This document shows, in pieces, positions 8,801-11,800 of a DNA stretch of 64,000 nt (its first letter is position 1; each line of letters starts with the position of its first letter). This stretch comes from Ruditapes philippinarum (lineage: Eukaryota): NCBI RefSeq assembly GCF_026571515.1, contig NW_026866764.1, forward strand, positions 248,001 to 312,000, read 5' to 3'. A program made the position numbers.

Positions 8801-11800
8801 ATCCGCAGATGTATTCATTTGGCGGTCATCATGGAACCTTCAACTCAAGCATGGATTGTGAACAAGTGTATAGGTTACTGACCAAAACCCATAACTCGAA
8901 CAGGGATTTTCACTGAATTATTCCCATTTGCGAACATTATACATTCTATGCATTTGCAAGTGCGTTTTTCTACCCGAGAGCTCGTGCTTTTAATATTTGT
9001 TTCGTTTGCACGTGTTAGATGTATATTTCTATGGTGAATTTACATGTTTGTTTTAATATTGTAGTGTAATGAGTGCCGACCACCACGTAGATGAAGGGAC
9101 GCCACCTGTTGTCATTGACAATGGTTCGTTTCGCTGCAAGGCAGGCTTTGCGGGAGATGATTATCCAAAGTACATATTTCCATCTCAGATTGGCAGACCA
9201 AACGACACGGAGAGTGACTCAATAGCAGCAGTTGATGTAAGGGATACATTTGTTGGAGAACAAATACAAAAGAAAAGAGATGTTCTGTCAATAACTTGTC
9301 CCATCGAGAGAGGCATTATTACCAACTGGGATGATATGGAGAAAATCTGGCAGCACGTTTTTCAAGAAGAACTACATGTTGAATCAGAAAACCATCCCGT
9401 GTTACTGTCTGACGTTCCTTTAAACCCAAAAACCCATCGCGAGAAGATGTGCGAAGTTATGTTTGAAACTTTCAAAACGCCAATGTTTTCTGTTTCTTTA
9501 GGGGGAGTTCTTGGCATTTACGCTTTAGGGCGTGTGTCTTCTATAATACTCGATGTGGGCCACGAAGTCTCGCATGTTCTCGCAATTTATGAGAGTTATA
9601 CATTTAAAAACGCAATCGATAAGTTAAATTTCGGCGGGAAAGATTTGACAGACTATATGCTGGAGATGTTGAATTCTAAAAGTGGTACCAGTTTTACGTC
9701 GAATTCTGAAAAAGAGACAGTTCGCGAGATTAAAGAAAAGTTATGCTACACGGCAATAGACTTTGAAAAAGAGATGGAGCGTTCTAATTCCGAGTCCGAC
9801 GCCATTGAACGAACATATAAACTGCCAGATGGAAGTAAGATAACAGTTGGAAGCGAAAGATTCCATTGTCCAGAGGCTCTTTTTCAACCGCACTTATTTA
9901 AAAAAGATTTTCCTGGACTTCATAAGTTTTTTCATTCAAGCCTAATGAAGTGTGATGTGGATGCAAGACCAGATTTAATGTGTAACATGATCTTATGCGG
10001 TGGATGCACGATGTTTCCAGGTGTGAAAGAAAGAATGCAGAAGGAAATGGTCGACCTGATTTCAAAAGATAAAAGAGTAAGAGTTATTGCCCCTCCCGAA
10101 AGGACGTTCAGTGTTTGGATCGGAGGCTCAATCCTAGCCGCTCTCTCATATTTCGGGACCAAAGCTGTGTCGAAAAAGGAATATGAAGAAAACGGCCCTG
10201 GAATTGTGCATTCCAAGTGTTTCTGATTCATCGCTAGTCGACTAATTCGGAGTCAATATACAATGTATCTCAAATATGCAATACTTAATTATTTTTTTAA
10301 AAGCAATAGATATTTACGTGCTATAATTTTAATATAACAATATATTACTCATCACTATTTTTGGCAAGCAACAGATTGGAGTGTTTCCAACATGAAATTT
10401 TCAGTCAAGTGCAAATGAATAAAATCTTAATTTGAAACAGGTGAATGCCTTCGCTAGTAATATCCTAGCAATTTCTATGGGAGAAAATGCATAATTAAGT
10501 ACATTTGCACTTATATGTTACTTGAAAAGTTCAATCAGTCGGTTCTATAACAAAATACAAATAGAGATTAGTTGATTCATCGGTGACAAGCGGAGAAAGC
10601 CGAAGTAATTTTCGTATATGATAATATTACATATTTCTCAATGTAAGGAGTTATACGGAGTTATACGATTGCATTTTAGAAATAACTAACTTTTTTACCA
10701 TGTTTCTACGGAGTAATGGCCAATTCTACATATATAAACATTTAAAAGTTGATTTCTGTGAAAAGTAAGTGCGTTACTTTAACTTAAACCATATTATTGT
10801 ACACTTGACAACATGTTTGGATGAATTAAATATTTTTTTCTTCAAGGCATTAATTATATTCTAATCTAGAGGCGCATGGCTTTAATATTAGCACTGTTTT
10901 TACTTCAAGTATGAAATTATTCCTAACAGTTAAAGCTGCATGCCTCCGGGTGAGATAAAATAATTCAAGAAAATCAAACTTAATAAAAATGTAGTGAGGT
11001 TTAAAGAAATGTAAAAAGATTCAAGATAAAAGTAATAATTCTAATTAATGTGCCATTTATGATCGAATTTGCAGTATTTTTCACCATATTTCGCCTGGGT
11101 TAATAACGCAGTAAGGGCTTTTTTGTATACTTTGGCAAAATACATGTAGGCATATTGTAAACGCTGTTTGCAATATGTACCGTTAAATCATTTTTTGTTC
11201 ACTTCACATTATTTTTCTTTTTTATACATTTTCAAAATTTTCACGAAAACTAACAGGAATCTGGAGGCATGCTGCTTTATAGAGAATAACATGCTACTGT
11301 CTTTTGATATCAATTTTATCAGGCGAGGCTGATATGGGCTAGAAAGGGCGAGGCTTGCCGAGCCCTTTCTGCCCATATCAGCCGAGCCTGATAAAATTGA
11401 TATCAAAAGACAGTAGCATGTTTTTCTATTTATCATGTAACACATAAAACTGTCATAACTACAAAATAATCTACTTTTAAAAAGCGAATTTCGTAGAAAT
11501 GGGCATTTCTGTTCAAAGAAATAATTCTTGAAAACAAATTCCTCCGCCCCTCAAACTTTAAATTTGTAAATGGCGGCCATACTTTCTTTCGACTCGAGAT
11601 TATTTCCTGTGATAAAAGATACAACAGAATGAAACACGATAAAAGTCTTACCTTTAAACATCGATCGAAAAAAATCCCTAAGAATCACATAGACTTTTTT
11701 ACTGCAGGTTTGTCTTGAATTGTCAATTTCAAAAGTTCACAATAATTTCAATCAAACAAAAGTCAAACGGCAATCAAACACAAGCTACACAAACATGCGT

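What the first reader, a model, noticed from the sequence alone, without database searches (positions are those of the whole stretch)
9069..10226. Intact actin paralogue with remodelled ATPase site: candidate pseudo-enzyme or lineage-specific Arp
Aligned by eye to conventional actin: P1 loop DNGSGM->DNGSFR (G15F), P2 loop DSGDGV->DVGHEV (D157H, G158E), catalytic Q137->G (AIQAVL->SLGGVL) and methylated H73->R (PIEHG->PIERG). The D-loop is replaced by an acidic, longer NDTESDSIAAVDV and the hydrophobic plug FLGMES becomes LFKKDF. The 385-aa ORF is nevertheless intact. The paralogue at <1-710 shares DVGHEVSH, GGCTMF and KDFPGLH despite many other differences, which suggests selection for a non-canonical function such as a non-hydrolysing or non-polymerising actin, a decoy or a sperm-type Arp (inference).
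Basis: partly seen in the sequence, partly recalled or inferred. Interest (0 to 1): 0.7.

Follow-up and report, generated by a model that had tools for sequence, protein, structure and literature searches.

The report
Divergent clam actin, remodelled ATP site
An intact, selectively maintained gene in a clam actin-gene cluster encodes a divergent actin whose ATP-splitting residues have been replaced; it belongs to a small clam-only family of such proteins whose cellular job is still unknown.

Summary
Window 9069..10226 (+) is an intact 385-codon ORF with a full-length actin domain. It is not a lone oddity. It is one of nine rows of a small subfamily: two named venerid clams (Ruditapes, Mercenaria) and unnamed records. 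The subfamily shares G15 to F/Y/H/S, Q137 to G/A/S/P, an invariant D157H, H73 to R/K in 7 of 8 rows that cover it, T303C in 8 of 9, and loss of W356. It keeps most other nucleotide contacts. The gene is not decaying. Omega against its window paralogue is 0.08-0.15, though dS is saturated. Differences from an 80%-identical relative avoid conserved columns (p 0.0014). AlphaFold2 gives a confident actin fold, pLDDT 91.8. It sits in a tandem cluster of five actin-family copies. I read it as a lineage-specific, Arp-like divergent actin that probably still binds nucleotide but has lost polymerisation-triggered hydrolysis. Its own sub-branch has also lost constraint on the D-loop. Nucleotide binding, polymerisation and expression remain untested. 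This is a new member of a known kind, of moderate interest.

The parts
9069..10226 (+). Coding sequence of the divergent actin (385 aa plus stop), one uninterrupted exon.
   Evidence: intact ORF, full-length Pfam Actin match, 50-54% identity to solved actins, AlphaFold2 pLDDT 91.8.
9129..9134 (+). Codons for F21-R22, the standard positions G15 and M16 of the P1 phosphate loop.
   Evidence: Position 15 is F/Y/H/S in the 7 subfamily rows that cover it.
9201..9239 (+). D-loop replacement, residues 45-57 (NDTESDSIAAVDV). M44 and M47 are lost.
   Evidence: This is the least conserved 13-residue window against P0005 (4 of 13 identical, versus 309 of 385 overall). pLDDT blocks here are 75 and 64.
9297..9311 (+). 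Sensor-loop codons C77 to R81, covering standard Y69C and H73R.
9501..9503 (+). Codon for G145, the standard Q137 that holds the attacking water.
   Evidence: The role of Q137 is taken from passages of PMC9618068.
9555..9566 (+). P2 phosphate-loop codons V163-G164-H165-E166 (standard S155V, G156 kept, D157H, G158E).
   Evidence: H at 157 is present in all 9 subfamily rows.
9891..9911 (+). Changed hydrophobic plug, residues 275-281 (HLFKKDF).
9045..9064 (+). Pyrimidine-rich tract ending in AG, 4 nt before the ATG. This is a probable 3' splice acceptor of a 5'-UTR intron (inference).
   Evidence: The other three copies whose start lies in the window have the same arrangement, 8 or 11 nt before their ATG.
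10418..10423 (+). AATAAA, 192 nt after the stop codon. Candidate polyadenylation signal (inference).
3..710 (+). 3' part (235 aa) of a second subfamily paralogue, cut by the window edge.
   Evidence: 64.6% identical to the target and nearest to unnamed P0077.
41954..43093 (-). Neighbouring conventional-type actin gene C1 (379 aa), with canonical G15, Q137, D157, G158 and H73.
46272..47411 (+). Neighbouring conventional-type actin gene C2 (379 aa), arranged head-to-head with C1.
   Evidence: 89.7% aa identity to C1, omega about 0.2.
49900..50790 (+). Actin pseudogene with an in-frame stop and an 81-residue internal gap.

Best explanation
This is a functional gene for a lineage-specific, Arp-like divergent actin. 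It belongs to a small subfamily seen so far in two named venerid clams (Ruditapes philippinarum, Mercenaria mercenaria) and in five unnamed records. The subfamily most likely arose by tandem duplication inside a clam actin-gene cluster. It keeps the actin fold and most of the nucleotide pocket: D11, G13, S14, D154, G156, V159, H161, G182, R210, K213, E214, G301, T304 and M305 are kept in every row that covers them. It has replaced the parts that make actin a polymerisation-activated ATPase: both 'phosphate clamp' residues (G15, D157), the water-positioning Q137, and in most rows the G158/H73 interdomain pair. Shown: intactness, fold, subfamily membership, purifying selection and the pattern of kept and lost residues. 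Inferred, in the way described for Arp4 and Arp8: the protein still binds adenine nucleotide but as a structural cofactor, with little or no hydrolysis, so it is uncoupled from the ATP-driven assembly cycle. Further inferred: the branch leading to this gene and its 80% relative P0005 released its D-loop from constraint (M44 and M47 lost) and changed the plug. It therefore probably does not build canonical F-actin by itself and acts as a monomer, as a complex subunit, or as a modifier of conventional filaments.
For: Intact ORF with a full-length actin domain. AlphaFold2 gives pLDDT 91.8 and pTM 0.89. The 50 listed Foldseek PDB matches are entries with conventional actin, TM by query 0.89-0.94. 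The subfamily is monophyletic: SH-aLRT 99 in a 69-row quick tree, and 100/99 in a 35-row careful tree. Target plus P0005 has 100/100 support. In a profile search the 7 input rows score 738-775 bits and the partial P0077 scores 664. The next row of 400 aa or less scores 613 bits. Purifying selection: against the window paralogue, dN is 0.23-0.24 and dS 1.6-2.9, giving omega 0.08-0.15 over 234 codons. Differences between target and P0005 fall in 11 of 122 columns that are invariant in 10 other rows, against 56 of 249 variable columns (Fisher p 0.0014). Seventeen changes are assigned to the target branch, 23 to the P0005 branch, and 36 are ambiguous. The target's end branch (0.088) is shorter than that of P0005 (0.18). 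Pocket pattern: H157 is present in all 9 rows, while positions 15, 137 and 158 vary within the subfamily. Precedent, read as passages: Q137A actin still polymerises but has low ATPase (PMC10062479). Arp8 has T at the G15 position and R at the H73 position and holds ATP tightly. Arp4 has T142 in place of Q137, shows no hydrolysis above background, and uses ATP structurally (PMC3510490). The G158 carbonyl bonds methyl-H73 across the cleft (PMC9618068). D-loop: 4 of 13 residues are identical between target and P0005, the lowest 13-residue window. In contrast 11-12 of 13 are identical among P0069, P0065 and P0040, which are only about 70-76% identical overall. Small D-loop differences limit filament stability in Plasmodium actin I (PMC3990709). 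Tandem origin: five actin-family copies lie within 51 kb, each with its coding part uninterrupted. The four whose start lies in the window each have a pyrimidine-rich AG just upstream of the ATG.
Against: No expression data could be reached, so transcription is not shown. Nucleotide binding was not tested, and a bulky F at position 15 together with H157/E158 could abolish binding rather than only hydrolysis. Q137A actin keeps the active-site geometry in crystals, so loss of Q137 alone does not prove a dead enzyme. H161 and D154 are retained. dS is saturated, so omega is approximate, and no orthologue DNA was available for a branch test. A fast-evolving D-loop could reflect adaptive change rather than loss of function. 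AlphaFold2 models no ligand, and I could not read its coordinates. Descent from the bivalve 378-380-aa actins is favoured (a branch with 92/94 support) but not significant: AU p 0.163 for the alternative, and 19 diagnostic columns were inconclusive.
Confidence: 0.55

Rival explanations
1. It is a specialised but still filament-forming actin isoform. It polymerises, alone or mixed with conventional actin, into slowly hydrolysing and therefore long-lived filaments. Lacking M44 and M47, these filaments would also escape MICAL oxidation. They would serve a particular tissue structure.
For: Q137A actin polymerises like wild type (PMC10062479 passages). Much of the barbed-end face is kept, for example the WIGGSIL segment, Y143 and the C-terminal F. 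The D-loop of the other subfamily members is strongly conserved (11-12 of 13), which suggests that those members use it. H73 to R/K keeps a positive charge at the sensor position. MICAL targets M44/M47 (abstract of PMC10705957, seen in the listing).
Against: In this gene and in P0005 the D-loop is the least conserved stretch and has lost both methionines and Y53. The plug carries two lysines. W356 and R372 are changed. Both phosphate-clamp residues are replaced (the clamp is defined in PMC3990709).
Confidence: 0.25
2. It is a toxin-insensitive back-up actin. The remodelled cleft blocks small molecules that bind above the nucleotide (latrunculin class). This is as proposed for Chlamydomonas NAP1, Chromodoris nudibranch actins and a sponge actin, and would be useful to a filter feeder.
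For: Two of the five latrunculin hydrogen-bond residues are replaced (Y69C, D157H), and R183 is K. T186, E207 and R210 are kept. The residue list and the strong resistance of the D157-equivalent D159G mutant come from passages of bioRxiv 10.1101/2025.01.24.634782. NAP1 has H at the Y69 position and forms toxin-resistant filaments, and divergent actins are discussed as a resistance strategy, including in molluscs (PMC12444908 passages). P0040 also has H at position 69.
Against: There is no evidence that these clams meet cleft-binding actin toxins; this is my inference. The idea needs the protein to polymerise, which is doubtful for this gene. G15, Q137 and H73 are not among the five hydrogen-bond residues listed, so the idea explains only part of the pattern. 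The review names no bivalve example.
Confidence: 0.1
3. It is a recently silenced or never-expressed duplicate drifting toward pseudogene status.
For: A real actin pseudogene lies 40 kb away in the same cluster. No expression data were available. Catalytic residues are lost.
Against: Omega is 0.08-0.15. The ORF is intact although only 0.1-2.25% of simulated neutral copies stay stop-free at 0.1-0.2 substitutions per site. Changes avoid conserved columns (p 0.0014), and many of the 17 target-branch changes are conservative, such as K>R, I>V, L>M and D>E. The same 'lost' residues are shared with relatives in another clam genus.
Confidence: 0.04
4. It is a member of one of the ancient pan-eukaryotic Arp classes (Arp1 to Arp11), or an orthologue of the vertebrate testis Arps (ACTRT, ACTL7).
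For: Identity to actin of 52-55% is in the range usually quoted for Arp1 (recalled). The ESM Atlas nearest cluster by features is named 'actin-related protein T2-like', and by structure one of two rows is 'Actin-like protein 7A' (these are leads only).
Against: The best 60 of 166 matching solved chains are all conventional actins, so every solved Arp chain scores below 445 bits. The 50 listed Foldseek matches are entries with actin. There are no class-type insertions, only +2, +1 and +1 residues. Its relatives are clam paralogues in a tandem actin cluster.
Confidence: 0.03

Closest known systems
Conventional actin (for example Drosophila Actin-5C, PDB 4jhd/4rwt, or the neighbouring genes C1 and C2 of this window)
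   Same: Same fold and length class, a full-length Pfam Actin match and 51-55% identity. Most nucleotide-contact residues are kept, as are many surface segments such as [10 protein letters not shown] and WIGGSIL.
   Different: G15F, Q137G, D157H, G158E, H73R and Y69C. The D-loop is replaced and 2 residues longer. The plug is changed, W356 is lost, and T303C and K336T are present. Of 238 columns invariant in five conventional-type rows, the target keeps 155.
Nuclear Arps Arp4 and Arp8 (PMC3510490, passages read)
   Same: It would work alike. The G15 position is substituted (T in Arp8), H73 is R in Arp8, and the Q137 equivalent is changed in Arp4. ATP is held tightly with low (Arp8) or no (Arp4) hydrolysis.
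   Different: Those are ancient classes with large insertions and much lower identity to actin. This protein has no such insertions and groups with clam actin paralogues. It is not a member.
Lineage-specific actin-derived 'orphan' Arps: Drosophila obscura-group D-ActL1-3 (PMC7038667) and mammalian testis ACTL7/ACTRT
   Same: These are recent, lineage-restricted duplicates of actin-family genes that diverge strongly while keeping the fold. [quoted passage not shown] Here too the coding part is a single exon in a tandem cluster.
   Different: Those are testis-expressed and show positive selection by MK tests. Expression and polymorphism could not be examined here. They are independent origins, not orthologues.
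Toxin-insensitive divergent actins: Chlamydomonas NAP1, Chromodoris and sponge divergent actins (PMC12444908)
   Same: A divergent extra actin sits beside conventional ones, with substitutions at latrunculin-contact residues in the nucleotide cleft. The Y69 position is H in NAP1 and C here, and D157 is also replaced here.
   Different: NAP1 is known to form filaments and to be induced by toxin. Neither is known here, and this gene's D-loop argues against ordinary filaments.
Plasmodium actin I (PMC3990709)
   Same: A divergent actin in which D-loop differences and F at the Y53/54 position go with short, unstable filaments. The target also has Y53F and a changed D-loop.
   Different: Plasmodium actin keeps the catalytic residues and hydrolyses ATP. 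The target has lost them.

Membership tests
Actin family (Pfam PF00022) / actin fold | Full-length match to the family profile above the curated cut-off. | tested here: met
   394.8 bits against a cut-off of 27, covering residues 11-385.
Actin family (Pfam PF00022) / actin fold | Four-subdomain actin fold without large insertions. | tested here: met
   AlphaFold2 pLDDT 91.8. Foldseek TM by query is 0.89-0.94 to entries with solved actin.
Conventional actin isoform | Very high identity to other conventional actins. Full-length canonical-type rows such as P0098 were 82% identical to the fungal reference, and second copies of two-domain rows 85-91%. | tested here: not met
   55% identity to the fungal reference P0117 and 51-54% to solved actins.
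Conventional actin isoform | Catalytic and phosphate-clamp set: G15, Q137, D157, G158, H161, D154 and H73. | tested here: not met
   G15F, Q137G, D157H, G158E and H73R. Only D154 and H161 are kept.
Conventional actin isoform | Conserved D-loop (with M44 and M47) and hydrophobic plug used in filament contacts. | tested here: not met
   M44I and M47V, a non-homologous acidic D-loop, and the plug HLFKKDF.
Canonical Arp classes (Arp1-Arp11) | Closer to one pan-eukaryotic Arp class than to actin. | tested here: not met
   The best 60 of 166 matching PDB sequences are all actins, and the 50 listed Foldseek matches are entries with actin. No named Arp sequence could be put into my trees.
Canonical Arp classes (Arp1-Arp11) | Class-specific insertions or deletions. 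| tested here: not met
   Only +2 residues (D-loop), +1 and +1 relative to canonical actin.
Lineage-specific ('orphan') actin-derived Arp-like proteins | Restricted taxonomic range and origin by duplication of an actin gene. | tested here: met
   Nine rows only. The named ones are from two venerid clams. No further member appeared among 8000 scored candidates, among 19 candidates of a region search, or among the best 150 of 34,412 representative hits. The gene lies in a tandem cluster. Exact parentage is favoured but not significant.
Lineage-specific ('orphan') actin-derived Arp-like proteins | Tissue-restricted (often testis) expression. | not testable with these tools
   No transcript data were reachable. 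CpG o/e is about 1 for all copies and flanks, which does not discriminate.
ATP-holding, non-hydrolysing actin-fold proteins (works like Arp4) | Water-positioning residue (Q137 equivalent) lost while the nucleotide contacts are kept. | tested here: met
   Q137 is G/A/S/P in the 8 subfamily rows that cover it. D11, S14, D154, G156, R210, K213, E214 and M305 are kept in all rows that cover them, and K18 in 6 of 7 full-length rows.
ATP-holding, non-hydrolysing actin-fold proteins (works like Arp4) | Stable bound ATP and no measurable hydrolysis. | not testable with these tools
   This needs purified protein.
Toxin-insensitive divergent actins (NAP1-like) | Substitutions at latrunculin hydrogen-bond residues (Y69, D157, T186, E207, R210). 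| tested here: met
   Two of five are replaced (Y69C, D157H), and R183 is K.
Toxin-insensitive divergent actins (NAP1-like) | Forms filaments in the presence of toxin, and is induced when conventional actin is disrupted. | not testable with these tools
   No assay or expression data.

The most novel reading that the evidence does not exclude
Venerid clams maintain a private family of actins in which both phosphate-clamp residues, the catalytic glutamine and the methyl-histidine sensor have been replaced in a fixed way: an invariant His157, a basic residue at 73 in most rows, and E158 in the younger branch. This could make an ATP-locked actin whose cleft is latched by a new R/K73-E158 salt bridge in place of the G158 carbonyl to methyl-His73 bond. 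Such a protein would be blind to cleft-binding toxins, to SETD3-type histidine methylation and, in this gene's branch, to MICAL oxidation. It would amount to a regulator-proof and toxin-proof parallel actin system. D157H with G15 or Q137 changes also recurs in at least 8 unrelated unnamed divergent actins. That recurrence hints at a repeatable evolutionary route out of the actin ATPase cycle.
Probability: 0.15. Interest if true: 0.7.

Novelty: new member of a known kind. Interest (0 to 1): 0.45.

Why it matters
Actin is among the most constrained eukaryotic proteins. Natural variants that keep the fold but discard the ATPase switch show which parts of the molecule can be separated. A conserved family with an invariant D157H and replaced G15, Q137 and H73 would be a ready-made natural mutant series for three questions: what nucleotide hydrolysis, the phosphate clamp and the sensor loop contribute; how new Arp-like proteins arise from actin by tandem duplication; and whether divergent actins protect marine animals against actin-targeting toxins. 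For genome annotation, the one named Ruditapes relative and the one named Mercenaria relative are labelled 'actin, cytoplasmic-like' and 'actin, non-muscle 6.2-like'. Those labels hide that they are unlikely to behave as conventional actins.

Tried and rejected
1. More members. A profile search, a region-restricted search of residues 130-205 (4 of 19 candidates passed) and the representative library added no row beyond the eight relatives already seen.

3. Parentage. The careful tree puts the subfamily with the bivalve 378-380-aa actins (92/94 support). However, the AU test does not reject holding all 16 conventional rows together (p 0.163). The 19 diagnostic columns were no better for the subfamily (3-7 shared) than for other long-branch rows (0-7).

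4. P0220 and P0277 joined the subfamily in the trees with weak support (a group with SH-aLRT 84, drawn open, which held P0220 but not P0277; 82/90, flagged as long branches meeting). The alignment shows that they lack the subfamily's shared changes and are closer to canonical actin. I reject them as members and read their D157H as convergent.

5. CpG o/e as a proxy for expression breadth is about 1 for every copy and flank, so it is uninformative.

6. The pseudogene as a 'decay' control has omega 0.18-0.21 against C2, no higher than C1 against C2. It therefore died recently and gives no contrast.

7. Flank similarity. Only two short dispersed repeats lie upstream of the target and nothing is shared with the other copies' flanks.

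8. Complex prediction was not run. A filament-type self-pairing would pass or fail mainly by likeness to solved actin structures.

9. Literature. Ten searches turned up no paper on this clam subfamily. The search for 'Ruditapes philippinarum' plus 'actin gene family' gave 0 papers. Subscription journals and supplements were not visible.
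Full report
WHAT IS THERE

Window 9069..10226 (+) is an uninterrupted ORF of 385 codons. It matches the Pfam Actin profile end to end at 394.8 bits, E 4.7e-118. Its best solved relatives are conventional actins, headed by Drosophila Actin-5C at 467.8 bits. The best 60 of 166 matching distinct PDB sequences are all actins.

All of them are confirmed:
- G15F and M16R (DNGSFR)
- Q137G (SLGGVL)
- S155V, D157H and G158E (DVGHEV)
- H73R (PIERG)
- a D-loop replaced by NDTESDSIAAVDV
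- a plug changed to LFKKDF

Further changes are Y69C, M44I, M47V, Y53F, R183K, T303C, K336T, W356A and R372S. Of 238 columns invariant in five conventional-type rows, the target keeps 155.

SURROUNDINGS

The window is AT-rich eukaryotic DNA, with GC 0.26-0.38 in 2-kb steps, and has one N run at 37258-37407. It holds five actin-family copies:
- a 5'-cut copy at 3..710, 64.6% identical to the target
- the target itself
- two conventional-type genes arranged head to head, at 41954..43093 (-) and 46272..47411 (+). They are 52.6% and 51.3% identical to the target and 89.7% to each other, with omega about 0.2
- a pseudogene at 49900..50790 with an in-frame stop and an 81-residue gap

Each copy has its coding part in one piece. 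The four copies whose start lies in the window each carry a pyrimidine-rich tract ending in AG, 4 to 11 nt before the ATG. I read this as the acceptor of a shared 5'-UTR intron (inference). That fits tandem DNA duplication better than retroposition. An AATAAA lies 192 nt after the target's stop.

One relative is named 'actin, cytoplasmic-like [Ruditapes philippinarum]' (P0065). It has the same longest-contig length (346,475) as the window's own protein record. The window is therefore probably from the Manila clam, and the cluster holds at least a third subfamily gene outside the window (inference).

A SUBFAMILY, NOT A SINGLE ODD GENE

The first homology search scored 8000 of 8000 capped candidates. 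Among ordinary actins at about 50-55% identity, it found eight closer rows:
- P0005: 80%, unnamed
- P0077: 66%, partial, unnamed
- P0040: 65%, unnamed
- P0065: 63%, Ruditapes
- P0069: 63%, Mercenaria mercenaria
- P0079: 58%, unnamed
- P0085: 55%, unnamed
- the window's own record

In the alignment the group shares these states:
- position 15 is F/Y/H/S
- position 137 is G/A/S/P
- position 157 is His in every row
- position 73 is R/K, except that P0079 keeps H
- G63D
- T303C, except that P0079 has S
- R183 is K/N/G
- W356 is lost
- the D-loop is 2 residues longer
- one extra residue follows the LN motif

Position 158 is G in the two deepest rows, A in Mercenaria and E in the rest.

A profile built from seven rows scores those seven rows at 738-775 bits, and the partial P0077 at 664. 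The next row of 400 aa or less scores 613 bits. A search restricted to residues 130-205 found 4 passing proteins among 19 candidates, all already known. A full scan of 1.84 billion representatives gave 34,412 hits at E up to 0.001, but none scored like the subfamily; the best single-stretch hit was 594.6 bits. At 50% clustering the members may lie under conventional-actin representatives.

In trees the nine rows form one group: SH-aLRT 99 in a quick 69-row tree, and 100/99 in a careful 35-row tree. Target plus P0005 are sisters (100/100) on a long stem (0.27-0.30), and the target's own branch is short (0.082-0.088).

IS IT ALIVE?

- Against the window paralogue, dN is 0.23-0.24 and dS 1.6-2.9 over 234 codons, giving omega 0.08-0.15 by three methods. 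A fourth method failed on saturation, so the value is approximate.
- After the split from P0005, differences fall in 11 of 122 columns that are invariant in ten other rows, against 56 of 249 variable columns (Fisher p 0.0014).
- By outgroup comparison, 17 changes fall on the target branch, 23 on the P0005 branch, and 36 are ambiguous. Many target-branch changes are conservative, such as K>R, I>V, L>M and D>E.
- In simulated neutral copies (2000 per rate), the frame stays open in 12.1%, 2.25%, 0.1% and 0% at 0.05, 0.1, 0.2 and 0.3 substitutions per site.
- AlphaFold2 with a 60-row alignment gives pLDDT 91.8 and pTM 0.89. Only residues 1-6 fall below 50, and the D-loop blocks score 75 and 64.
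- The 50 listed Foldseek PDB matches are entries with conventional actin, at TM by query 0.89-0.94 and 50-54% identity.

Expression could not be examined.

HOW IT PROBABLY WORKS

The literature below was read as passages.

- Actin clamps the phosphates between the P1 loop (13-16) and the P2 loop (156-159). Q137 and H161 position the attacking and helping waters after the G-to-F transition. The G158 carbonyl bonds methyl-H73 across the cleft (PMC9618068).
- Q137A actin still polymerises but has low ATPase (PMC10062479).
- The 'phosphate clamp' is measured between G15 and D157 (PMC3990709). Both are replaced here.
- Arp8 has T at the G15 position and R at the H73 position and retains ATP through purification. 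Arp4 has T142 in place of Q137, shows no hydrolysis above background, and uses ATP structurally (PMC3510490).

In the clam subfamily the other pocket residues are kept in every row that covers them: D11, G13, S14, D154, G156, V159, H161, G182, R210, K213, E214, G301, T304 and M305. The new H157 is invariant, whereas positions 15, 137 and 158 vary. That pattern is what one expects if the pocket is still used to hold a nucleotide but the hydrolysis machinery is no longer selected.

I therefore propose that the protein binds nucleotide as a structural cofactor with little or no hydrolysis. This is inference, at confidence about one half. The pairing of a basic residue at 73 with E158 in the younger branch could replace the G158 to methyl-H73 bond with a salt bridge. 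That is speculation, and I could not read the model's coordinates to check it.

THE TARGET'S OWN BRANCH

Between the target and P0005 the D-loop is the least conserved 13-residue window: 4 of 13 identical, against 309 of 385 overall. Among P0069, P0065 and P0040 the same stretch is 11-12 of 13 identical, although those proteins are only about 70-76% identical overall. The target and P0005 have also lost M44 and M47, and with most of the subfamily they have F at Y53. The plug carries two lysines.

The D-loop and the hydrophobic loop are key longitudinal and lateral filament contacts, and small D-loop differences limit filament stability in Plasmodium actin I. I infer that this gene's product is unlikely to build ordinary F-actin alone. 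The other subfamily members may still use their conserved, distinctive D-loop.

RIVAL READINGS

1. A slow-hydrolysing but polymerising specialised isoform. This is possible, because Q137A polymerises and much of the barbed-end face is kept.
2. A toxin-insensitive back-up actin. Two of the five latrunculin hydrogen-bond residues (Y69, D157) are replaced, and R183 is K (residue list and D159G resistance from bioRxiv 10.1101/2025.01.24.634782). A recent review discusses divergent actins such as Chlamydomonas NAP1 (H at the Y69 position), nudibranch and sponge actins as a resistance strategy, but names no bivalve (PMC12444908). This explains only part of the pattern and needs polymerisation.
3. 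A decaying copy. This is disfavoured by the selection evidence above.
4. A canonical Arp class or a vertebrate testis Arp orthologue. Sequence and structure searches give no support. The ESM Atlas name 'actin-related protein T2-like' for the nearest cluster is only a lead. No named Arp sequences could be placed in my trees.

ORIGIN

The careful tree puts the subfamily on the same side of a 92/94 branch as the bivalve 378-380-aa actins and a freshwater-mussel actin, away from fungal, snail and other canonical actins. The AU test does not reject the alternative (p 0.163), and 19 diagnostic columns were inconclusive. The tandem arrangement and the shared gene structure are the better argument for a local origin.

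CONVERGENCE

Outside the subfamily, at least 8 unnamed representatives have H157, several with changes at 15 or 137 as well. The five that I aligned lack the subfamily's shared changes and are closer to canonical actin. The same escape from the canonical site seems to have happened repeatedly.

NOVELTY AND VERDICT

Lineage-specific, actin-derived Arp-like proteins are a known kind. Examples are the Drosophila obscura-group D-ActL1-3, likely from intron-less actin genes and testis-expressed (PMC7038667), 'orphan Arps' (PMC2441452) and the divergent actins listed in PMC12444908. Mollusc actin genes are known to be tandemly duplicated and to resemble paralogues of their own genome (PMC5440852).

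Ten literature searches found nothing on this clam subfamily. Subscription journals and supplements were not visible, including the Biomphalaria actin supplement.

I rate it a new member of a known kind, of moderate interest. The conserved way in which the ATPase core has been rewritten is worth a bench test, but function, nucleotide state, polymerisation and expression are all still open.

LEFT UNCHECKED

- Eukaryotic genome or transcript DNA of relatives. No tool here holds it, and genome contigs covers bacteria and archaea and was not used.
- The closed metagenome and viral collections.
- Names of the unnamed representatives.

Noticed in passing
window 49900..50790 (+): An actin pseudogene of the conventional-type lineage, with an in-frame stop after '...QAVLS' and an 81-residue internal gap. 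It also has G15D and D157N/G158K. Omega against gene C2 is still 0.18-0.21, so it probably died recently.
   Followed up: partly
window 41954..43093 (-) and 46272..47411 (+): Two 379-aa conventional-type actin genes lie head to head about 3.2 kb apart. They are 89.7% identical, with dS about 0.25 and omega about 0.2. C2 is nearly identical to the unnamed JGI protein P0131.
   Followed up: partly
window 3948..5265 (-): Three adjacent ORFs carry the DDE_Tnp_4 (E 3.6e-31) and HTH_Tnp_4 (E 7.6e-13) domains. This is a PIF/Harbinger-type transposase split over several frames, so it is probably a decayed element lying between the two subfamily actin genes.
   Followed up: partly
window 21291..21674 (+) and 36995..37468 (+): Two similar ORF pieces share a '...KSKEGQDL.YKT...DEKAQVNGVVFVSDYTGAS...' stretch. 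One gives a weak CRAL/TRIO hit (E 0.0083, below the curated cut-off). They may be exons of duplicated SEC14-like genes. The second runs into the N run at 37258-37407.
   Followed up: no
window 60879..62402 (-): Two adjoining long ORFs. One has NHL-repeat or beta-propeller-like weak hits (NHL E 2.6e-05), and the other looks to me like a coiled-coil stretch, which I did not test. Together they resemble the TRIM-NHL-type genes that I recall as expanded in bivalves.
   Followed up: no
window 18370..18963, 22846..23659, 33120..33575, 54257..54746: Large tandem arrays with periods of 23, 48, 61-136 and 38 bp. Some of them create long spurious ORFs in the ORF list.
   Followed up: no
window 8636..8766, with matches at 28251..28318 and 41497..41586: Short dispersed repeats (68 and 91 bp, 80-90% identical) lie about 300-430 bp upstream of the target's ATG. 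One copy lies just downstream of gene C1. They may be a small mobile element or a shared regulatory piece.
   Followed up: no
proteins P0012, P0036 and about 30 other mollusc rows of 534-543 aa: Many mollusc 'actin' records are about 535 aa long because residues from about 135 to 290 are repeated in tandem within one model, as seen in P0012 and P0036. These are either real internally duplicated actins or merged tandem gene models.
   Followed up: no
unnamed representatives P0215, P0220, P0260, P0274, P0277, P0287, P0291 and P0188: D157H, often with changes at G15 or Q137, recurs in divergent actin-like proteins. The five that I aligned lack this subfamily's other shared changes, which suggests a repeated, convergent route away from the canonical ATPase site.
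   Followed up: partly
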